From NCBI GenBank assembly GCA_030390025.1, contig CM059432.1, forward strand, positions 94,242,001 to 94,306,000: 64,000 nucleotides of DNA, in the 5' to 3' direction. How positions within the stretch are numbered: position 1 is the first letter of the stretch; every line of letters starts with the position of its first letter. Positions 10,230-59,495 of this stretch are shown here, piece by piece. The position numbers and the translations under genes were made by a program. Source of the stretch: Squalus acanthias (lineage: Eukaryota). The notes under the pieces are model-generated. The model saw only the letters and a list, made by a program, of their open reading frames with translations, was not told the DNA's origin and made no database searches.

Positions 10230-11388
10230 CACTAAGAACGAGACCGGACGGACCACCTGGCAGTGACCTTGGCATTGGCTACGGAAAGGGCAATGGCACA
10301 CCCAGCCCAGTTGACCCTGCAAAGCCCTCCTCACCAACATATGGGGACTTGTGCCAAAATTGGGAGAGCTGTCCCACAGACTAGTCAAGCAACAGAATTA
10401 TACCTTTACAGCCAAGGTCCCAAACATCACCATCCCTTGGGTATGTATTGTCCCACCGGCAGGACAGACCCACCAGTGGTATACAGTCAGGAAGGAGTGG
10501 CCCTGGGAGTCCTCAACATTGACTCTGGACTGCATGAAGCTTCAGGGCAAGGAAACCTCCTGCTGATTACCACTGACTGCCCTCCCTCAGCTGATGAATT
10601 ATTACTCCTACCATGTTAAGAAGCACTGTGAGTAGCAAATGTACTCTGGGTGGGGGGACTTCAATAACCATCACCAAGACTGGCTCAGTAGCACCACTGC
10701 TGGCTGTGTCCTGAAGGACATAACTGCCAGTCTGGGCCTGCGACAGGTGGTGAGAGAACCTACTTGACCTCATCCTCACCAATCTACCTGTCCATGACAG
10801 TACTGGTAGCAGTGACCACCGCACAGTCCCGTCTTCACATACACCCTCCATCGTGTTGTGTGGCACTATTACCGTGCTAAATGGGATAGATTCAGAACAC
10901 ATATAGCAGCTCAAAACTGGGCATCCATGAGGTGCTGTGGGGCAGCAGCAGAATTGTATTCCACCACAATCTGTAACCTCATGGCCTGGAATATCCCTCA
11001 CTCTGCCATTACCACCAACCCTGCTTCAGTAAGGAGTATACAGGAGCAGCACAAGGCGTACCTAAAAATGAGGTGCCAACCTGGGGAAGCTGCAACACAG
11101 GACTACATGCATGCTAAAAAGCAGAAGCAGCATGCTATAGACAGGGCTAAGCGATCCCACAATCAATGGATCAGATCAAAGCTCTGCAGTCCTGTCACAT
11201 CCAGTCGTGACTGGTGGTGGACCATTAAACAACTAACGAGAGGAGGAGGCTCCAAGAATATCCCCATCCTCAATGATGGTGGAGCCCAGCACGTGAGTGC
11301 AAAAGACAAGGCTGAAGCATTTGCAACTATCTTCAGCCAGAAGTGACAAGTGGATGATCCATATTGGCCTCCTCCTGAGGTCCCCATC
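10230..11388 (+). mobile_element. CR1/L2-group LINE ORF2, 5' half (APE endonuclease/linker), degenerate; continues at 18252
   Basis: WVGGDFN-like endonuclease remnant; ORF 10858-11346 (WHYYRAKWDRF...KDKAEAFATIFSQK); homologous to 35960-37340. Confidence 0.8.
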
Positions 11389-14300
11389 ATAAGAACATAA
11401 GAAATAGGAGCAGGAGTAGGCCAATTGGCCCCTCGAGCCTGCTCCGCCATTCAATAAGATCATGGGTGATCTGATCCTAACCGCCAATCTACTATCACAG
11501 AACCATCTCCTGAACCTAACAGAATTGGACACACGAAATAGGAGCAGGATCAGGCTACACGGTCCCTGGGCCCGCTACGCTACCCACAGGGCCATGACCG
11601 ATCCGAACCTAGACTCATGTCCAAATTCCTGCCTGCTCCCCGTAACCCTTAATTCCCTTTACTTCTAGGAAACTGCCTATTTCTGTTTTAAATTTATCTA
11701 ATGATGTAGCTTCTACAGCTTTTTGGGGCAGCATATTCCATGGACCTACCACCCTCTGAGTGAAATAGTTCCTTCTCATCTCAGTTTTGAAAGAGCAGCC
11801 CCTTATTCTAAGACTATGCCCCCTAGTTCTAGTTTCACCCATCATCGGGAACATCCTCCCCGCATCCACCCGATCCAACCCCTTCACAATCTTATATGTT
11901 TCAATAAGATCGCCTCTCATTCTTCTGAACTCCAATGAGTAGAGTCCCAATCTACCCAACCTCTCCTCATATGTCCATCCCCTCATCCCCGGGATTAACC
12001 GAGTGAACCTTCTTTGTACTGACTCGAGAGCAAGTATGTCTTTTCTTAAGTATGGACACCAAAACTGTATGCAGTATTCCAGGTGCGGTCTCACCAATAC
12101 CTTGTACAACTGAAGCAATACCTCCCTATTTTTATATTCTATCCCCTTAGCAATGAAAGCCAACATTCCATTGGCCTTCTTAATCACTTGCTGCACCTGC
12201 ATACTAACCTTTTGAGTTTCGTGCACCAGGACCCCCAGATCTCTTTGTACTTCAGTACTCTCCAGTTTCTTGCCATTTAGATCATAACTTGCTCTACTAT
12301 TTTTCCTGCCAAAGTGCATAACCTCACACTTTCCAGTATTGTATTCCATCTGCCAAATCTCTGCCCACTTACTTAGCCTGTCTATGTCCCCTTGCAGATT
12401 TTTTATGTCCTCCTTACTCACTACTTTCCCTCCCATCTTAGTATCATCTGCAAACTTTGATATGTTACACTTGGTCCCCTCCTCCAAATCGTTAATATAG
12501 ATTGTAAAGAGTTGGGGACCCAGCACTGACCCCTGCGGAACACCACTAGTTACTGATTGCCAGTCTGAGAATGAACCATTTATCCCAACTCTCTGCCTTC
12601 TGTTAGATAGCCAATCCTCTATCCATGCCAGAATATTACCCCCAATCCCGTGATTTTTTATCTTAAGCAATAATCTTTTGTGTGGCATCTTGTCAAATGC
12701 CTTTTGGAAGTCTAAATACACCACATCCACTGGTTCCCCTTTATCCACCCTGTGTGTTACTTCCTCAAAGAACTCCAGCAAATTTGTCAAACATGACTTC
12801 CCCTTCATAAAACCATGCTGACTTTGTCCTATTAAATTATGATTATCCAAATGTCCCATTACTGTCTCCTTAATAATGGACTCCAAAATTTTACCTACCA
12901 CAGATGTTAGGCTAACCGGTCTATAGTTTCCAGCCTTCTGTCTACTGCCCTTTTTAAATAAGGGTGTTACATTAGCAGTTTTCCAGTCTGCCGGGATCTT
13001 TGCTGAGTCCAGGGAGTTTTGGAAAATTATTACCAATGCATCCACAATCCCTACCGCCACTTCCCTCAAGACCCTAGGATGTAAGCCATCAGGTCCAGAT
13101 GATTTATCCGCCTTGAGTCCCATTATTTTACCGAGTACCACTTCCTTAGTGATTTTGATCGTGTTTAGCTCCTCCCCCCCCTATAGCCCCCTGTTTGTCC
13201 AGTGTTGGGATATTCTTAGTGTCCTCTACTGTAAAGACTGATACAAAATATTCATTCAGTGTATTTGCCATCTCCATATTTCCCACCATTAATTTCCCGG
13301 TCTCATCCTCTAAGGGACCAACATTTACTTTAGCCACCCTTTTTCTTTTTATATAACTATAAAAACTCTTACTATCTGTTTTTATATTTTTTGCTAATTT
13401 ACTTTCATAATCTATCTTCCCTTTCTTAATCAATCTTTTTGTTATTTTTTGCTGTCTTTTAAAGTTTTCCCAATCCTCTATCCTCCCACTAGATTTTGCT
13501 ACCTTATAAGCCCTTGTTTTTAGTCGAATATTATCCTTAATTTCTTTACTTAGCCATGGATGACTGTCTTTTCTTTTACACCCTTTTCTTCTCAGTGGAA
13601 TATATATTTTTTGGAAGTTGTAAAATAACTCCTTAAATGTACACCACTGATCATGTATCGTCTTACCCTTTAATCTATTTTCCCAATCCACTGTACTCAA
13701 TTCTGCTCGCATACCTTCATAGTCTCCTTTATTCAAGCTTAGCACGCTTGTTTGAGATCCAACCTTCTCACCCTCTAATTGAATATGGAATTCAACCATG
13801 TTATGGTCACTCATTCCAAGGGGATCCTTTACTAAGACATTTTTAATTAATCCTGTCTCGTTACACAGGACCAGATCTAAGGTTGCTTGCCCCCTGGTCG
13901 GTTCAGTTACATACTGCTCAAGAAACCCATCCCTAATACACTCAATGAACTCATCTTCAAGGCAGCCCTGCCCAATTTGATTTGTCCAATTAATATGATA
14001 GTTAAAATCCCCCATAATTAAAGATGTTCCCTTATTACAAGCCTCAACTATTTCCTGATTGATACTCCGTCCAACAGAGTTGCAACTGTTCGGAGGCCTA
14101 TAGACTACGCCCACTAATGTTTTTTTCCCCTTATTATTCCTTATCTCCACCCAAACTGTTTCATTATCCTGATCTTTTGACCCAATATCATTTCTCTGTA
14201 TTACAGTGATTCCTTCCTTTATTAACATAGCCACCCCACCTCCCCTTCCTTCCTGCCTGTCCTTCCTGATCGTTAAATAACCTGGTATGTTTAATTCCCA

Positions 14301-16050
14301 GGCATTGTCACCCTGCAGCCATGTTTCTGTAATGGCCACAAGATCATACCCATATGTAGTTATTTGTGCCATTAACTCATCTATTTTGTTACGAATGCTA
14401 CGTGCATTCAGATAGAGAACTTTCAAATATGTTTTGTGACACTTAGTTCCTGCTTTTGCCCTTTTTATTACTTTACCTTTTACTCCATACCTTCTGCCCC
14501 TTCCTGACACACTCTGGTTTTTAATTTCCCCACTGCTACCTAAGTCTATGACCTTCTCTGTTGTCATTTTTATTATTTGCTCTCTAGGAACCTCCCCCCC
14601 GCTAATTAGTTTAAAGCCCTCTCTACAGCCCTAGTTATATGATCCGCCAGGACTCTAGTCCCAGCACTGGCCAAGTGAAGCCCGTCCCAACGGAACAGCT
14701 CCCTCCTGCCCCAGTACTGGTGCCAGTGTCCCAGGAAGCAAAACCCATTTCTCCCACACCAGTCTTTGAGCCACTCATTTAACTCTCTAATTTTATTTGT
14801 CCTAGCCAAATTCGCTCGTGGCTCAGGTAATAATCCAGAGATTAATACCCTTGAGGTTCTGTTTTTTAATTTGACCCCTAGCTGCTCATACTCCTTTAAC
14901 AGAACCTGCTTCCTTGTCCTATCTACGTTGTTTGTACCAACATGGACCACGACAACTGGATCCACCCCCTCCCACTGCAAGTTTCTTTCCAGCCCAGAGG
15001 AGATGTCCTTAACCCTGGCACCGGGCAGGCAACACAGCCTACGGGACTCTTGCTCTCGGCTGCAGAGAACTCTATATATCCCCCTAATAATACTATCCCC
15101 TACCACTACAACATTTCTATTTACTCCCCCCTCTTGAATGGCCCCCCGTTCCACGGTGCTGTGGCCAGGTTGCTCATCCTCCCTGCAGTCCCTGCTCCTG
15201 TCCCCACAGGGAGTAAGAACCTCGAACCTGTTGGACAAGAGCAGGGCTGCGGCTCCTCCAACACTACCTCCTGGATCCCCGTACCTGCCTCACTCGTAGT
15301 CACACCGTCCTGTCCCTGACCATGGGCTACATCTGAATTAATTAACTTCATAGGTGTGACCACCTCCTGAAACACAAAGTCCAGGTACTTCTCCCCCACC
15401 CTGATGTGTCGCAGTGTCTGAAGCTCAGACTCCAGCTCATCAATACGGAGCTGGAGTTCCTGTAGCAGCAGACACTTGTCACAGATGTAATCACCGTGAG
15501 CCTCAATGGGGTCCACCGGCTCCCACATCTCGCAACAGTAACACATCACCTGCTCCATTCTATGTAATTAATTAAAAAAATTTATTGTTAGTTATGGACA
15601 CTCTGCCCGATTATAGATGCTAGTATCCCCTCTAATTAATTGGATTTAAATTAAATCAATCCCTCTAAATTACACCAGTTAAATGGTTTACCAACAGTCA
15701 CTCTGCACCAGAAAGGCCTTATTAACTATAACCCACAGAGTTTAAGTTTAAAAAGAGAGAAATACTCACCAACCAATTACTTACCTGCTTTCTGGTGACG
15801 TCACACCTCGATTTTTTTTACCTCTCTCCCTCCCTCCGAGTTCGGAGACTGGTCCCGCCTTACCTGGTCTCTGGAGCCTTTTAAACCCTTTGCCGCCGCC
15901 TCGCCTCACACAGGTCCGCCGCCGCACCAGGAACCTGACAAAGATGGAAAAAGGAAGGCACACCTCCCTCCCCGAACTCCCTCACTCACCAAACTCGCAG
16001 CTTAGCACTCTATTCCAAATCTGCACTCCGTGATAAACTGCACTCTAGTC
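11389..16050 (-). mobile_element. Near full-length CR1 LINE (5'UTR, ORF1 with zinc finger/coiled coil/SGNH esterase, ORF2 APE+RT)
   Basis: ORF1 pieces 15121-15558 and 14606-15238 (VVVGDS, HVGTN, DGLH); ORF2 pieces 13146-14567 and 11615-13141; one frameshift in each ORF; tail read as ataagaac repeats at 11389. Confidence 0.95.
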
Positions 16051-19889: not shown

Positions 19890-22800
19890 TAATTTGAGAA
19901 TTGAATGGGTATAAAGTGAAATCCCACTTTTGTAAATAAACACTGAAGGTTCTTTTTCTTTTTAACAGGAGTTCTTAAAATCTGTACTAAAGTATAAGTA
20001 TTAAGTTTTAAGTTTATTTCTGCTGGGTTAGTTCTTAGTCTATTAAATAGAGGCATGGCAGGGCAGCTCAGTCCCGTGGAGTGCACATCCTGTGCCATGT
20101 GTGAAGTCAAGGACGCTTCGCGTATCCTGGACGACCACATGTGCAGGAAGTGTCACCAGCTACAGCAAATCGAGCTCCGGGCTTTGGAGCTTGAGCGGCG
20201 GCTGGAGTCACTGCGGTGCATCCGCGAGGCTGAGAGTTTTGTTGATAGCACGTTTCTAGAGGTGGTCACCCCGCAGCTTAAGAGTTTGCAGGCAGAGAGG
20301 GAATGGGTGACCGCCAGACAGAAGAGGAGGACCAGGCAGGTAGTGCAGGAGTCCCCGGAGTGCATCACGCTCTCCAACCAATATTCTGTTCTGAGTACTG
20401 GTGAGGGCGATGGTTCCTCTGGGGAGTGCAGCCAGAGTCAAGTCCATGGCACCACGGGTGGCTCAGCTGCACGGGGGGAAGGAAAAAGAGTGGAAGAACA
20501 ATAGTGGTAGGGGATTCAATAGCTAGGGGAATAGACAGGCGTTTCTGCGGCCGTAGACATGACTCCAGGATGGTATGTTGCCTCCCTGGTGCCAGGGTCA
20601 AGGATGTCACTGAGCGGCTGCAGGACACTCTGAGGGGGGAGGGTGAACAGCCAGAGGTCGTTGTCCATATCGGTATCAACGACATAGGCAGAAAGAGGGA
20701 TGAGGTCCTGCAGGCAGAGTTTAGGGAGCTAGGAGAGACATTAAAAAGCAGGACCTCAAAGGTAGTAATCTCCGGATTACTCCCAGTGCCACGTGCTAGT
20801 GAGTACAGGAATAGGAGGATAGAACAGATGAATACGTGGCTGGAGAGATGGTGCAGGAGGGAAGGCTTTAGATTCCTGAGGCATTGGGACCATTTCTGGG
20901 GAAGTTGGGACCTGTACAAGCCGGACGGGTTACACCTCAACAGAGCTGGGACCAATATTCTTGCGGGGAGGTTGGTTAGTGCTGTTGGGGAGGGTTTAAA
21001 CTAGCTTGGCAGGGGGATGGGCACCAGCATATAGGAGTAGAAAAGAAGAATAAGGTGCATAACAGAGTGAGTGTGTTGGATAGTACTAGAGAAGATAGTA
21101 CTAGAGGCGGTAGTAGTACCATATAAGATAGGAGCAGACTAAGAAAGACTACGAAAAATTCAAAAATGGGTTTAGAATGCATGTACGTAAACACACAAAT
21201 GTGGTGAATAAGGTTGGTGAGCTTCAAGCACAATTAGCCGTATGGAAATATGATATTGTGGCAATAACGGAAACGTGGCTTAAAAATGGTGAGGACTGGG
21301 CACTTAATATTCAAGGGTACAAGGTGTTCAGAAAAGATAGGGAAGGAAAAAAGGCAGGTGGGGTGACAGTGCTGATTAAAGAAGACATTGTAGTGTTGGA
21401 AAAGGAGGATGTTCTTGAGGGGACAAGGACAGAATCCACTTGGTTAGAGTTAAGGAGCATAAAGGGTATGATCATGCTATGGGGGTATTCTATAGGCCTC
21501 CAAATAGAGAGAGGGAGGTAGGGGAGCAAATCTGCAGGGAAATCGCAGAGATATGCAAGAGCTATAGAGTGGTGATATTGGGGGACTTTAATTACCCAAA
21601 TATTGATTGGGATAATGCTAGAGTAAAGGAAAAGGAGGGGGAGGAATTTCTGAAATGTGTTCAGGAGAATTTCCTTGATCAATATGTTCTTGGCCCAGCT
21701 AGGAAGGAGGCATTGTTGGATCTGGTGCTGGGGAATGAGGTGGGCCAGGTCGACCAAGTGTCTGTGGGAGAACACTTGGGTACGAGTGATCATCATATCG
21801 TAAGATTTAGATTAGCAATGGAGAGGAGCAAGGAACAATCTAGAGTGGAACTTCTAAACTGGAATAGGGCTAACTTCAATGGGATGCTAAAGGATCTAGC
21901 CAGGGTTAAATGGGACCAAAGACTGACAGGAAAAACTGTAATGGAGCAATGGGTGATCTTTAAGGAGGAGATGTTCCAAGTACAGGCTAGGTACATTCCA
22001 GCAAGAGGGAAGGGTAAGGGATCCAAAGCAAGGGCTCCTTGGAATACGAGGGAGATAGAGAAGATGATGAAACAAAAAAAGAGGGTGTATGATGAATGTC
22101 AGGTGAATTCTTCAAGGGAGAACCAGATCAAATACAATAAGTTGTGCGGGGATGTGAAGATGAAAGTACGATTGGCAAAGAGAGAATATGAGAGTAGAAT
22201 GGCGGTTAACATAAAAGGGAACCCAAAAATCTTCTACCGGCATGTAAACAGTAAGCGGGTAATAAGAGGCGGGGTGGGGCCTATTAGCGACAAAGAAGGT
22301 GATATATGCTTAGAGGCGCAGGGCAAGGCTAGAATACGCAATGAGTACTTTGTATCGGTGTTTACTAAGGAGGTGGATGCTGACAAAATATTGGTAGAAG
22401 TGGAAAAGCTAGAAGCAATGGAAGGGGTGAAAATTGATAGACAGGATGTACTAGAAAGGCTGGATATGCTTAGAGTGGACAAGTCGCCTGGTCCAGATGG
22501 CTTACATCCCAGGTTGCTAAGGGAATTGGGAGAGGAGATAGCGGAAGGGCTTGCCATAATTTTACAATCTTCCCTAGATGCGGGGGAGGCGCCTGAGGAT
22601 TGGAAAGTGGCAAATGTGACACCATTGTTCAAGAAAGGGTGTAAGGACAATCCTTGTAACTACAGGCCGGTCAGTTTAACATCAGTGGTGGTTAAAGTTT
22701 TAGAAACAATAATCAAGGAAAAAATTAACGGGCACTTGGAGAGGTTTAAGCTAACTAAGGAGAGCCAACACAGATTTGTAAAAGGCAGATCGTGTTTGAC

Positions 22801-26435: not shown

Positions 26436-29400
26436 ATAGAAACATAGAAGATAGAAGCAGGAGTAGGCCATTCGGCCCTTCAAGCCTGCTCCGCCATTCA
26501 ATGAGATCATGGCTGATCAAACAAATTCAGTACCCTGCCCCTGCTTTCTCCCCATATCCCTTGATCCCTTTAGCCTTAAGAACTATATCTAACTCCTTCT
26601 TGAATATATTTAATGATTTGGCCTCAACTGCCTTCTGTGGTAGAGAATTCCACAGGTTCACCACTCTCTGGGTGAAGAAATTCCTCTTCATCTCAGTCCT
26701 AAATGGCTTACCCCTTATCCTTAGACTGTGACCCCTGGTTCTGGACTCACCGGCCATCTGGAACATCCTTCCTGCATCTAGTCTGTCTAGTCCTGTTAGA
26801 ATTTTATAAGTTTCAATGAGATCCCCTCTCATTCTTCTAAACTTGAGCGAGTATAAGCCTAATCAACCCAATCTCTCTTCATATGTCATCCCTGCCATCC
26901 CAGGTATCAGTCTGGTGAATCTTCGCTGCACTCCCTCCATGGCAAGAACATCCTTCCTCAGATAAGGCGACCAAAACTGCACACAATACTCAAGGTGTGG
27001 TCTCACCAAGGCCCTGCACAACTGCAGCAAGATATCCCTGCTCCTGTACTTGAATCCTCTCGCTATGAAGGCCAACATACCATTTGCCTTCTTAACCGCC
27101 TGCTGCACCTGCATGCTTACCTTCAGCGATTGGTGCACAAGGACACCCAGGTCTCGTTGCACCTCCCCTTTTCCCAATCTATTGCTGTTTAGATAATAAT
27201 CTGCCTTCCTGTTTTTGCCACTAAAGTGGATAACCTCACATTTATCCACATTATACTGCATCTGCCATGCATTTGCCCACTCACCCAACCTGTCCAAATC
27301 ATACTGGCGTTTCTCTGCATCCTCCTCACAGCACACTCGCCCACCCAGCTTTGTGTCGTCTGCAAACTTGGAGATATTACATCTAGTTCCCTCGTCTAAA
27401 TCATTAATATATATTGTGAATAGCTGGGGTCCCAGCACCGATCCCTGCGGTACCCCACTAGTCACTGCCTGCCACTCGGAAAAAGAACCGTTTATTCCAA
27501 CTCTTTGCTTCCTGTCTGCCAACCAGTTCTCTATCCAAGTCAGTACCTTACCCCCAATCCCATGTGCTTTAACTTTGTATGCTAATCTCTTATACGGGAC
27601 CTTATCGAAAGCCTTCTGAAAGTCCAAATACACCACATCCACTGGTTCTCCCTTATCAATTCTACCAGTTACATCCTCAAAAAATTCCATTAGATTTGTC
27701 AAGCACGATTTACCTTTTGTAAATCCATGTTGACTTTGTCCGATCCTGTCACTGTTTTCCAAGTGCACTGCTATTACATCTTTTATAATGGACTCTAGCA
27801 TTTTCCCCACTACCAATGTCAGGCTTACCGGTCTATAATTCCCCGTTTTCTCTCTACCACCTTTTTTAAATAGTGGGGTTACATTAGCTACCCTCCAATC
27901 CATGGAAACTGTTCCAGAGTTTATAGAATTTTGAAAGATGACCAGCAATGCATCTACTATTTCTAGAGCCACTTCCTTAAGTACCCTGGGATGTAGATTA
28001 TCAGGCCGTGGGGATTTATCGGCCTTCAATCCCGTCAATTTCCCTAACACCATTTCCCTACAAATACTGATTTCATTCAGTTCCTCCCTCTCATTAGACC
28101 CTATGTTCCCCGACCTCTCTGGGAGGTTATTTGTGTCCTCCTTTGTGAAGACAGAACCAAAGTATGTATTTAATTGGTCTGCCATTTCTTTGTTCCCCAG
28201 TATAAATTCCCCTGATTCTGACTGCAAGGGACCTACGCTTGACTTCACTCTGCGTCTTAATGAAGAATTCTGTCATATTATGATCGCTCTTCCCCAAGGG
28301 ACCTCGCACAACAAGACTGCTAATGAATCCTTTCTCATTACATAATACCCAGTCTACGATGGCCTGATCTCTAGTTGGTTCCTCGACATATTGGTCCAGG
28401 AAACCATCCCGTATACACTCTAGGAATTCCTCCTCCACAGTATTGTTACTAATTTGGTTAGCCCAATCTATATGCAGATTAAAGTCACCCATGATAACTG
28501 CTGTGCCCTTATTGCACGCATCTCTAATTTCCTGTTTAATGCCATCCCCAACCTCACCACTACTGTTTGGGGGTTTGTATACAACTCCCACTAACATTTT
28601 CTGCCCCTTGGTATTTCGCATCTCTACCCATACAGATTCCACATCATCCGAGCTAATATCCTTCCTTACTATTGTGTTAATCTCCTCTTTAACCAGCAAC
28701 GCTACCCCACCTCCTTTTCCTTTTTGCCTGTCCTTCCTGAAAATTGAATACCCCTGGATGTTGAGTTCCCAGCCTTGGTCACCCTGGAGCCATGTCTCCG
28801 TAATCCCAATTATATCATATCCGTTTACATCTATTTGCGCAGCTAATTCATCTACCTTATTACAAATGCTCCTCGCATTAAGACACAAAGCCTTCAGGCT
28901 TGTTTTTTTTAACACTCTTAGTCCTTTTGAATTATTTTTAACTGTGGCCCTGTTTGATTTACACCCTTGATTTCTCTGCTTCCACTTTTGTTTTTCTCCT
29001 TCCTATCTTTTGCTTCTATCCTTGTTTCCCTTTTCTCTGTCTCCCTGCACAGGTTCCCAACCCCCTGCCATTTTTAGTTTAAACCCTCCCCAACAGCACT
29101 AGCAAACACTCCCCCTGGGACATCGGTCCCAGTCCTGCCCAGGTGCAAACCGTCCAGTTTGTACTGGTCCAATCTCCCCCAGAACCGGTTCCAATGTCCC
29201 AGGAATTTGAATCCCTCCCCATGCACCATTCCTCTAGCCACGTATTCATCTGAAATATCCTGCTATTTCTACTCTGACTAGCACGTGGCACTGGTAGCAA
29301 TCCTGAGATTACTACCTTTGAGGTCCTATTTTTTAATTTACCTCCTAACTCCCTATATTCAGCTTTTAGGACCTCATCCCGTTTTTTACCTATATCGTTG

Positions 29401-30528
29401 CTACCAAATGCACCATGACAACTGGCTGTTCACCCTCCCCCTCCAGAATGCCCTGCAGCCGCTCTGAGACATCCTTGACCCTTGCACCAGGGAGGCAACA
29501 TACCATCTTGGAATCTAGTTTGCGGCCGCAGAAACGCCTGTCTATTCCCCTTACAATAGAATCCCCTATCACTATAGCTCTCCCATTCTTTTTCCTCCCG
29601 TCCTGTGCAGCAGAGCCACCCACAGTACCATGAACTTGGTTGCTGCTGCCTTCCCCTGATAAGCCATCCCCCCCAACAATGTCCAAAGTGGTATATCTGA
29701 TTGAGAGGGGGATGTCCACAGGGGACTCCTGCACTACCTGCCTGCGCCTACTACTCTGCCTGATGGTCACCCATTCCCTTCCTGCCTGTGCAGCCTTTAC
29801 CTGCGGTGTGACCAACTCACTAAACGTGCTATCCACAACGTCCTCAGCTTCACGGATGCTCCAGTGTATATCCATTCACAGCTCCTGTGCCGCAATGCGG
29901 TCTGCCAGTAGCTGCATCTGGATACACTTCCCGCACACATGGTCGTCAGGGACACAGGAAGTGTCCCTGATTTCCCACATAGTGCAGGAGGAGCATGCCA
30001 CGGGGCCGAGCTGTGCTGCCATGACTTACCCTTTAATTAACTTAAATTAAATTGCATCAAATCAAAGACCACTAATTACACTACAATTAAATGATATTAA
30101 TTACTCAAGGGCCCTTGTTTACTAGCTCTCACCGCTACACAACAGAGACCTTAGAAACTATAAACCACAAAAATTAAGACCTTCTAAACCTTATACACTA
30201 TTAACCTTAACTGTCAAACTATAGAGTAGTATAAATACTCACCTGGCCGTACTCACCCAATCAGCTGCTTCCTCTTGCCCGCATCACTTTTTGAATCGTG
30301 ACGTGACTCTGGAACGCCGCCACCGGTCTGTGAGATTGGTAAGCCTCTGAAAAAACCCACGAAACTGAGTATAAATACTCTCCGGCTGCTCCTGACACTG
30401 GGCCTCTGAAAAAAACCCGCGAAACTGAGTATAAATACTCACCGGCTGCTCCTGACACTGGGCCTCTGAAAAAAACCCGCGAAACTGAGTATAAATACTC
30501 ACCGGCTGCTCCCGACACTGGGCCTCTG
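26436..30528 (-). mobile_element. Young CR1 LINE, near full length with an internal ORF2 deletion (~28245) and tandem 5'UTR repeats
   Basis: ORF1 (ATG near 30021; ORF 29390-29875 with GDS esterase), APE 28127-28915, RT 26863-28248 and 26527-26832. Confidence 0.93.
30343..30527. repeat. 60-bp tandem repeat, ~3 copies, in the CR1 5'UTR
   Basis: Unit ggcctctgaaaaaaacccgcgaaactgagtataaatactcaccggctgctcctgacactg. Confidence 0.95.
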
Positions 30529-47272: not shown

Positions 47273-47478
47273 TGAGTGATACTGAGGCCCACTTAACTGA
47301 TCTCCCCTACACCATTCACATTGAGTGATACTGAGGCCTGCTTAACTGATCTCCCCTACACCATTCACATTGAGTGATACTGAGGCCCACTTAACTGATC
47401 TCCCCTACATCATTCACATTGAGTGATACTGAGGCCCGTTTAATTGATCCCCCCTACACCATTCACATTAACTGATCC
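47273..47478. repeat. 49-bp minisatellite, 4 copies; resumes at 51548-51620
   Basis: Unit tgagtgatactgaggcccacttaactgatctcccctacaccattcacat starts at 47273, 47322, 47371, 47420. Confidence 0.95.
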
Positions 47479-57671: not shown

Positions 57672-57835
57672 CCTGCCTCCTGAGAGCGGATTGGTCACTT
57701 GCCCTGCCTCCTGAGAGCGGATTGGTCACCCGCCCCTTGCCCTGCCTCCTGAGAGCGGATTGGTCACCCGCCCCTTGCCCTGCCTCCTGAGAGCGGATTG
57801 GTCACCCGCCCCTTGCCCTGCCTCCTGAGAGCGGG
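57672..57835. repeat. 38-bp tandem repeat (~4.5 copies) in a probable MITE-like element (~56890-57900) with a G-rich core
   Basis: Unit cctgcctcctgagagcggattggtcacccgccccttgc; starts at 57672 (shorter), 57703, 57741, 57779, 57817 (partial). Confidence 0.9.
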
Positions 57836-59495
57836 TTGAGTTCCTGTTTCAGATTTTTAACATTTTAATTTCCCACCTGTTTTTGGGGGTTGAAATTACA
57901 CCTGAAGTGTTTGTAGCAGAACATTTCTGTCATAAGGCATGACATCAACAGTAAGTGGCTTTCAGTTGACTACTGACTGTAATTGGGGTTTAGTTCCATT
58001 ATTTGCTTCTTAATGAACCAAAACTGCAAGAATTAACATGCTAGTGTTGTCATTGTTACTGTAATACTGATGAAACAAAGTCATGACCAGCATTATAAAT
58101 TTATGAAAAAGTTTGGCTTTCAAAACAAATTCTACATATAATGCTAGCTTATTAAACATATTTGCCTTCTTTAAAAGCAGGGTTACAGTCGTGGACCTGC
58201 CAATGGTCATTCATATTATTTCAAAAATGTGTGTTATTTTAATACAACAGAAAAATATGAACACAGCCCTTAAACTCACTCATGCGCATCATAAATCTAA
58301 TTCCTAATATTACCTGTTGATAATACTCTCCTATATCTATAGCACTTGCTTCAAAACGTCAGATAGATTGTTTTAGTCTGGCTCCAAACCCATATTATCA
58401 TCTACATTGTAAGGGATAGCTGGAGGTTCTGCCACTTTTAAGCCAAAAAAAGAAACTCCTGGAAATGGTGAAGACCCAGCACACGCAACAGGTCTCGGCT
58501 GTTTTCTGGCAAGGTTCCGCCGGTCACTCGCTTGAGTTATTGCAGACCAGCAAAACCCCTGAGCAATTCCAGCCCCAATATCTTTTGAGTTTTTAAAAGC
58601 TAAAGCAACTAGTTGGCCACCAATAGCAGGTTGGCATTTGATAAGTGCAAAACTAACTGGCTCACTGAACCCTTTAACCTCCAGCTGTGAATGTTTGAAA
58701 AGAGCAAATACATTTAAAAATCTGATCAGATACTGGGGAGCATCTGTGAATACAAGCAGATGACTAGTAGTTTTCCCAGTGGGTCTTATGAAGCACTATT
58801 TTCAAATATATATATTTTGCACCAACCATCACTGCAAACTGAATTAGCTGCAAAGGCAAACATTCAACATGATCAAATAACCTGTTGCCACTCACTGTGT
58901 AGACTTACACAAAAGAATACCTAATAAGCAAGATAATGAAGGGCTGCAGGTGTTCATGAAACCAGACATCTGATGATTCAGTACCTTCAGGAGAAAAGCA
59001 AATTTCAGAAAAGGAGATGGGATACCAATTTTGAACAATTTTTCTTCCCTGCCTTCCCCCCCTACATGGTTGCATCTCCATTCTCTCTTCTATTTGCATT
59101 TGCATTTTTTTAAAGTTTATAATTACTTTGTAACTAGTAAAAATAATATTTATTCCACATCTTTAGAAAAAAATTTCCTCCGAGTTCAACTGCCTATTAT
59201 ATATTGGGATCTGTAGGGGAATTATTGTTTTTTGATTGGCTGAAGTCAGCTCCAAAGTCTATTTCAATCAATTGAGTGACTAAGGCCCCGATATTTGGGA
59301 CCCGCGCTGGGAGCGAGTTTTTTTTAATGCAGACACCTCACTATCATTTTACTTCCGGGTTTTCCGTCCAATCAGCGGCAGGGGATGTGATGTGGACCTG
59401 CATAATGCGATCTCAACTTCAGTATTGAAAGGGAGAATCCAAAGATGCAAGTTGGAGGAGTTGGAGTTGGCAGGAAGAGAAGAGGGAGTCTCACA

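What the first reader, a model, noticed from the sequence alone, without database searches (positions are those of the whole stretch)
14565..14615. Candidate programmed -1 ribosomal frameshift joining CR1 ORF1 to ORF2 (U_UUA_AAC directly before the ORF1 stop)
Seen: ORF1 ends GCT TTA AAC TAA on the minus strand (heptamer 14615-14609), an X_XXY_YYZ heptamer in the correct phase. The -1 frame is open from there (CTA ATT AGC GGG GGG GAG ... AAA ATG) into ORF2. Three other, divergent CR1 copies in this window show the same heptamer, phase and adjacent stop, each followed by a G-rich stretch, while the rest of the linker is not conserved. Known: U_UUA_AAC is the coronavirus slippery site; ORF2 of L1 and SART1 LINEs is instead explained by termination-reinitiation. 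Inference: these CR1s may make a gag-pol-like ORF1-ORF2 fusion. I cannot tell whether this has been reported before.
Basis: partly seen in the sequence, partly recalled or inferred. Interest (0 to 1): 0.85.

Follow-up and report, generated by a model that had tools for sequence, protein, structure and literature searches.

The report
Frameshift signal joining CR1 LINE genes
In an abundant jumping gene of this shark-like genome, and in most related elements that likely come from other animals, a virus-style slippery sequence sits where the first gene overlaps the second one base out of step, usually with no usable start codon for the second, so the copying enzyme is likely made when ribosomes slip back one base.

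Summary
All four CR1 junctions in the window end ORF1 in U_UUA_AAC plus stop. Genome-wide, 103 of 114 copies carry it, and all 10 recurrent linker lengths put ORF2 in the -1 frame. The strongest evidence comes from elements found by their endonuclease alone in other organisms' contigs. Of 30 families, 28 have an in-phase slippery heptamer in the ORF1/ORF2 overlap (10 expected, at most 19 simulated). The heptamers are of five types, so the slippery form is conserved, not a peptide. 23 of the 30 have no in-frame AUG before the endonuclease. One intact copy has a 962-codon -1 frame whose first Met lies past the catalytic Asn. Against: the focal family has an AUG 41 nt after the stop, one family has UAAUG, and no strong 3' structure is seen in this genome, only a G-run. 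Ten literature searches found no CR1 frameshift report, but the 1990s CR1 papers could not be read. A review states -1 frameshifting for Dictyostelium TRE LINEs. The scan noted this idea before, in this genome and in another.

The parts
14609..14615 (-). Slippery heptamer U_UUA_AAC, in phase X_XXY_YYZ, last 7 nt of ORF1
   Evidence: 103 of 114 genome copies
14606..14608 (-). ORF1 stop codon TAA directly after the heptamer
14609..14630 (-). 22-nt overlap of ORF1 with the open -1 frame; a -1-frame TAG lies at 14633-14631, so any shift must fall inside this stretch
   Evidence: the same boundary is seen in members of shark families 0-7 and 10
14591..14600 (-). G-run starting 9 nt after the heptamer; candidate stimulator (inferred)
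   Evidence: no strong hairpin; no special pairing with the 3' tip
14409..14605 (-). Open -1-frame linker leading to the first conserved Asn of the endonuclease (codon 14408-14406)
14565..14567 (-). In-frame ATG 41 nt after the start of the stop codon; position not conserved among families
14606..15558 (-). ORF1 (Cys-rich start, SGNH esterase end); this copy is 1 nt short of the 317-aa form
11615..14630 (-). ORF2 frame (endonuclease, reverse transcriptase); broken by a frameshift near 13146-13180 in this copy
11388..11480 (-). 3' tail with hairpin-like arms (read by eye) and two 8-bp repeats
20995..21004 (+). Second CR1 junction: same heptamer plus TAG
29074..29083 (-). Third CR1 junction: same heptamer plus TAA
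47531..47540 (+). Fourth CR1 junction; only the ORF1 tail is left upstream

Best explanation
These CR1 LINEs overlap ORF1 and ORF2 at a conserved slippery heptamer, and ORF2 is likely made by programmed -1 ribosomal frameshifting as an ORF1-ORF2 fusion, as in retroviral gag-pol. Shown: heptamer, phase, overlap, open -1 linker, nucleotide-level conservation and frequent lack of an AUG. Inferred: most ribosomes stop and release ORF1p, and a minority slip on UUA/AAC and continue through the linker into endonuclease and reverse transcriptase. This would set the ORF1p:ORF2p ratio and tether the enzyme to the ORF1 particle. The pause is inferred to come from a 3' hairpin in one subgroup of the non-shark elements. 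In this genome it likely comes from the adjacent stop plus a G-rich element about 9-20 nt downstream, read as a bound protein or a weak quadruplex; this step is the least certain.
For: (1) Loci found by endonuclease alone: 28 of 30 families have an in-phase canonical heptamer in the overlap. Synonymous resampling expects 10.0, at most 19 in 2000 runs, for the literature-defined set. For the narrower set chosen after seeing the data it expects 3.5, at most 10. Upstream ORF1 windows hold one in 31 and 3 of 485. (2) Five types occur: UUUAAAC 6, GGAAAAC 12, GGGAAAC 2, AAAAAAC 6, UUUUUUA 2, on esterase and non-esterase ORF1s. Atkins 2016 lists three of them among the shiftiest and G_GA as an allowed XXX. 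(3) The wobble base before the site follows the heptamer type: G in 34 of 34 in-register loci across 9 amino acids. In 49 proteins ending xLN, x lacks a U-ending codon once, against 18 and 17 times at the two positions before. (4) No in-frame AUG before the endonuclease in 23 of 30 families. One intact copy has a 357-aa ORF1 and a 962-aa -1 frame, with the first Met 14 residues after the catalytic Asn. (5) This genome: 10 of 10 recurrent linker lengths are -1; median stops 0-1 in that frame against 3-9 and 1-12 in the others. (6) The motif sits at ORF1 ends of published crocodilian, coelacanth, bowfin and shark consensuses.
Against: No measurement of frameshifting or of a fusion protein. The focal family has an AUG 41 nt after the stop, another family at 14 nt, and one family has an overlapping UAAUG. 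Within this genome alone the synonymous test is weak: 37 of 116 third bases are invariant anyway, and both other invariant Asn codons are fixed too. Only 1 of 9 shark junctions has a downstream fold with z below -2. Two of 30 families lack a canonical heptamer: L121, which has AUGs, and L145. The families are related, so the counts overstate independence (tree poorly resolved). None of 20 full-length shark regions had an intact ORF2.
Confidence: 0.8

Rival explanations
1. ORF2 is made by termination-reinitiation or AUG-independent initiation after the ORF1 stop, as described for SART1 and L1. The heptamer would be a by-product of a conserved Leu-Asn protein end.
For: AUG 14-41 nt after the stop in two families and UAAUG in one. 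This is the textbook route for LINEs. L1 ORF2 initiation is described as independent of its AUG.
Against: The peptide is not conserved (LN, GN, EN, KN, FL) while the slippery form is. In many families the heptamer lies 60-300 nt inside ORF1, not at its stop. Reinitiation does not predict a fixed -1 phase. In several families ORF1 ends at or past the start of the endonuclease fold.
Confidence: 0.07
2. Frameshifting is ancestral and used by AUG-less families, but the focal family now makes most ORF2p by reinitiation at the AUG at 14567, with the heptamer as a second or vestigial route.
For: The AUG is present in 21 of 26 focal-family copies at the same place. No strong stimulator fold follows the site.
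Against: The 16 codons from the heptamer to the AUG stay open and in phase, and 23 of 25 scored copies keep the 200-nt spacing. The G-run is kept as in AUG-less families.
Confidence: 0.07
3. The frames are joined at the RNA level, by polymerase slippage that adds one base or by splicing, or ORF2 starts from an IRES-like element in the linker, as proposed in PMC3894237.
For: Homopolymer runs lie at and after the site. An IRES in LINE spacers has been proposed in print.
Against: In two raw RNA runs of a related species no insertion or joint was among the listed rows at 14565-14640; 14 indel rows and 16 joint rows were not shown. The runs are short, and the X_XXY_YYZ phase rule is a tRNA re-pairing rule. 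Many families have no spacer at all.
Confidence: 0.06

Closest known systems
Retroviral gag-pol and coronavirus/arterivirus ORF1a/1b -1 frameshift (Atkins et al. 2016, PMC5009743; passages read)
   Same: [quoted passage not shown]
   Different: The host is a non-LTR element with no protease seen. No pseudoknot or strong hairpin follows the site in this genome. Activity is untested.
Dictyostelium TRE5-A / TRE3-A LINEs (PMC5911963; figure legend passage read)
   Same: APE-type LINEs said to need a -1 frameshift for ORF2.
   Different: Amoebal elements with another ORF1. I saw only the review's statement, not the primary evidence, and did not compare sequences.
SART1 and L1 ORF2 translation (PMC2881922, PMC3708506, PMC3894237; passages and one section read)
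   Same: Bicistronic LINE RNA with ORF2 made at low level and dependent on ORF1 translation.
   Different: They use stop-start coupling or a spacer and give a separate ORF2p. Here the frames overlap at a slippery site and the AUG is often missing.
PRRSV protein-stimulated frameshift, C-rich motif 11 nt 3' of the site (PMC5009743; passage read)
   Same: A short unstructured motif at a fixed distance: GUGGUAGG 12 nt after the heptamer in one clade, a G-run at about 9-15 nt in sharks.
   Different: G-rich rather than C-rich; no binding protein is identified. This is an analogy only.
Vertebrate CR1 with esterase ORF1 (PMC13343379, PMC4316615; passages and supplement hits read); zebrafish LINE esterase PDB 4C1B
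   Same: Esterase ORF1 (E 1.9e-37 to 4C1B), endonuclease plus RT ORF2, 8-bp 3' repeats.
   Different: Neither main text contains the words frameshift or overlap.

Membership tests
CR1 LINE | Esterase-type ORF1 upstream of ORF2 | tested here: met
   PF13472; 4C1B
CR1 LINE | ORF2 with APE endonuclease and reverse transcriptase | tested here: met
CR1 LINE | 3' hairpin and octamer microsatellite tail (PMC4316615) | tested here: met
   8-bp unit twice at 11388-11403; hairpin arms read by eye
CR1 LINE | RT phylogeny inside the CR1 clade with named references | not tested
   Only an endonuclease tree without named references. Junctions resemble published shark CR1 consensuses. The non-esterase elements are CR1-group by endonuclease likeness only.
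Programmed -1 frameshift | X_XXY_YYZ heptamer in phase inside the overlap | tested here: met
Programmed -1 frameshift | Downstream ORF in the -1 frame, open from the site | tested here: met
   95 of 114 copies in -1, 85 of these 95 open; 10 of 10 recurrent lengths
Programmed -1 frameshift | Site conserved as nucleotides beyond amino-acid need | tested here: met
   weak within this genome alone
Programmed -1 frameshift | Downstream ORF has no usable start of its own | tested here: inconclusive
   None in 23 of 30 outside families and in shark family 7 (3 of 3 copies); present in the focal family
Programmed -1 frameshift | 3' stimulatory structure about 5-9 nt downstream (spacing recalled) | tested here: inconclusive
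   9 of 49 downstream windows have z below -2 against 2 of 49 upstream; 9-bp hairpin, 2 pairs with double changes, in 4 loci; 1 of 9 shark sites
Programmed -1 frameshift | Measured frameshifting or a trans-frame peptide | not testable with these tools
   needs a reporter, ribosome profiling or mass spectrometry
SART1-type termination-reinitiation | Overlapping UAAUG stop-start | tested here: not met
   Absent in the focal family and in families 0-10 as listed; present in one further family, L291-L293

The most novel reading that the evidence does not exclude
Programmed -1 frameshifting is the general, ancient route to ORF2 across two-ORF CR1-group LINEs of animals. The heptamer has been swapped among at least five types, and the stimulator among hairpins and short G-rich motifs at a fixed distance that are read by a protein, possibly ORF1p itself as a feedback. 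The active retrotransposase would be an ORF1-ORF2 fusion, and the supposed intergenic spacer a coding linker.
Probability: 0.55. Interest if true: 0.9.

Novelty: new variant of a known kind. Interest (0 to 1): 0.8.

Why it matters
How LINEs translate ORF2 is called an open question in a review devoted to it (PMC3894237). That review considers reinitiation and IRES and does not contain the word frameshift. CR1-group elements fill 22-34% of shark and ray genomes (PMC13343379). If true, their enzyme is a gag-pol-like fusion, ORF2 annotations that start at the first Met are wrong, and engineered CR1 tools should be built accordingly. The elements would also supply a large natural set of animal frameshift signals. 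A short reporter makes it directly testable.

Tried and rejected
Scans with the esterase found no related loci in viral, metagenome or genome contigs; the endonuclease query worked (one viral locus, not used). Twenty random 10-kb stretches gave few junctions. Long-range pairing of the G-run: no consistent partner. Against each element's own 3' tail, 7-70% of G-matched windows pair as well or better in 9 elements, so this is rejected for these families. It could not be tested for the GUGGUAGG clade, whose 3' ends are not held. A G-quadruplex is possible: 9 of 9 shark sites score at or above the 95th percentile, but the sense strand is G-rich, so it is not shown. Fused esterase-endonuclease proteins in databases (P0024, P0025) were set aside as probable one-base mutants or prediction artefacts. 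No run is on record as an RNA holder. In one search the strand of transcription could not be read. The endonuclease tree has 13 of 39 forks open, so the number of heptamer switches was not counted. Five papers asked for were not held.

Full report
Observation. The minus strand reads GCT TTA AAC TAA at 14617-14606. The frame ending there is an SGNH esterase. The -1 frame opens at 14630 after a TAG and runs through the heptamer and an ATG at 14567 into an APE endonuclease, with RT beyond a copy-specific frameshift. The 3' end has 8-bp repeats at 11388-11403. This is a dead copy of a young CR1 family; 30 of 30 fetched loci share its junction almost letter for letter. Three further junctions in the window have the same heptamer and stop, and one match (40095) is unrelated.

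This genome. Copies came from four searches and fetches. Three of the four queries included the ORF1 protein end, which favours Leu-Asn but not its codons. Anchoring on the esterase DGLH motif gave 149 unique anchors, 131 with an endonuclease start, in 12 clusters. Of 114 copies with the stop at the expected codon, 103 have the exact heptamer and 11 have one or two substitutions. 95 have the endonuclease in the -1 frame and 85 of those are open. All 10 linker lengths seen in at least two copies (149-206 nt, 8 families) are 2 mod 3; median stops in the linker are 0-1 in the -1 frame, 3-9 in frame 0 and 1-12 in +1. The first in-frame AUG wanders: 64, 53, 34, 24, 9 or 8 codons before the catalytic Asn, or absent (family 7, 3 of 3 copies; family 10, one copy). 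One further family has UAAUG. The synonymous test here is weak alone: 37 of 116 third bases and 14 of 46 invariant residues' codons are invariant across 8 families, though only 1 of 10 other Leu codons is. None of 20 long regions had an intact ORF2; the longest open frame was 727 aa.

Other organisms. An endonuclease-only profile returned 80 metagenome and 28 GTDB loci, likely animal host DNA (inferred). 57 of the 108 had an upstream ORF of at least 200 aa: 42 with ORF2 in -1, 15 in other frames. They formed 39 families at 80% identity, 30 with a member whose frames overlap in -1. Of these 30, 28 hold an in-phase heptamer in the overlap. Resampling synonymous codons expects 10.0 (maximum 19 in 2000) for the set defined from Atkins 2016, and 3.5 (maximum 10) for a narrower set I chose after seeing the data. 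Out-of-phase registers give 3 and 9 (broad) or 0 and 3 (narrow); upstream ORF1 windows give 31 or 3 of 485. The types are U_UUA_AAC 6, G_GAA_AAC 12, G_GGA_AAC 2, A_AAA_AAC 6 and U_UUU_UUA 2. The exceptions are L121 (AUGs present) and L145. Of the 9 families set aside, 7 still contain one of these heptamers upstream of the endonuclease, and 2 do not. 23 of 30 have no in-frame AUG before the endonuclease. ORF1s are esterases in 8 of 20 scanned and another type in the rest. In one clade, anchoring on a downstream motif gave 36 loci: 33 have G_GAA_AAC or G_GGA_AAC exactly 12 nt upstream, one has it 9 nt upstream, one lacks it and one match is unrelated. The codon before ends in G in all 34 in-register loci across 9 amino acids, and 32 of 32 protein-anchored Val-Val-Gly motifs use GUG GUA GG. 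One of 12 fetched regions was intact: 357-aa ORF1, heptamer, stop, and a 962-aa -1 frame with endonuclease and RT whose first Met follows the catalytic Asn by 14 residues.

Proteins and published consensuses. Of 103 esterase homologues ending 20-60 residues after DGLH, 49 end in LN, 10 in GN and 3 in KN. The residue before LN lacks a U-ending codon in 1 of 49, against 18 and 17 at the two positions before; helix position could contribute. Turtle, frog and mormyrid fish proteins end in LN. In Supplementary Table 2 of PMC13343379, 17 of 20 hits for heptamer plus stop lie at ORF1 ends by eye, in rows whose labels I read as alligator, crocodile, coelacanth, bowfin, bullfrog, chimaera, rays, sharks and a halosaur. 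This was a search for the motif in the first 400 characters of each row, so it shows presence, not frequency.

Stimulator. Downstream 60-nt windows fold below z -2 in 9 of 49 sites against 2 of 49 upstream. A subgroup of outside esterase elements has hairpins; four U_UUU_UUA loci share a 9-bp stem with 2 doubly changed pairs. Shark sites mostly do not fold (1 of 9). They have a G-run at about +9 to +15, shared with some outside families and the crocodilian rows. Pairing with the element's 3' tip, suggested by an earlier scan note, was no better than G-matched windows in 9 elements. The stimulator is therefore unresolved here; a protein-bound motif or a weak quadruplex plus the adjacent stop is my inference.

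RNA-level rivals. Two raw RNA runs of a related species cover the junction, and no insertion or joint there is among the listed rows, though some rows were not shown.

What is known. Ten searches found no report of frameshifting in CR1; two searches listed only 30 of 1,023 and 30 of 244 papers. Term searches inside PMC3894237, PMC3708506, PMC13343379, PMC4120745, PMC4316615 and PMC2881922 gave no occurrence of frameshift. The held first 300,000 characters of PMC5009743 never name CR1. In PMC11835228 (first half held) frameshifting concerns retroviruses. PMC5911963 states that Dictyostelium TRE5-A and TRE3-A need a -1 frameshift, and PMC2718515 notes -1 and -2 overlaps in Drosophila R1 without a mechanism. 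The original CR1 papers of the 1990s and Repbase notes are not in the library and may have remarked on the overlap. The scan recorded the same idea in this genome and a related one in another genome; I did not count these as support.

Verdict. The feature is real and the -1 frameshift reading is the best explanation (0.8), with reinitiation alone (0.07), a mixed route in the focal family (0.07) and RNA-level or IRES routes (0.06) as rivals. The mechanism is of a known kind, but its general use by CR1-group LINEs was not found in print and would answer a stated open question. New variant of a known kind; interest 0.8.

Noticed in passing
L104, L107, L116, L127, L136 and about 30 related loci, 12 nt after the heptamer: An invariant GUGGUAGG at a fixed distance (32 of 32 protein-anchored loci): either an RNA motif or a dual-coding constraint.
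   Followed up: partly
window 14633-14631 and the same place in other shark families: A -1-frame UAG 22 nt before the ORF1 stop is shared by families with different residues there, fixing a 22-nt overlap.
   Followed up: no
window 11620-11388; also L283, L292, L293: The 3' UTR looks doubled: a diverged first tail-like unit precedes the final one.
   Followed up: no
L291-L293: One shark family has both the slippery heptamer and a SART1-like UAAUG stop-start; a natural test case for switching mechanisms.
   Followed up: no
L184-L202, L182, L183, L188-L190, L195, L203-L209: GTDB bacterial and archaeal assemblies contain animal-type CR1 DNA; one MAG has 23 matches. Likely host contamination.
   Followed up: partly
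Proteins P0073, P0075, P0078, P0083, P0110, P0154, P0100, P0176: Other esterase ORF1s end in QGN, xKN or FF/FL motifs, which match other slippery heptamers at protein level; no DNA available.
   Followed up: no
window 47273-47476: A 49-bp tandem array (4.2 copies) lies directly upstream of a CR1 copy that keeps only its ORF1 tail and junction.
   Followed up: no
window 30343-30528 and 57672-57838: Tandem arrays of 60 bp and 38 bp; the first lies just upstream of the CR1 copy whose junction is at 29074.
   Followed up: no
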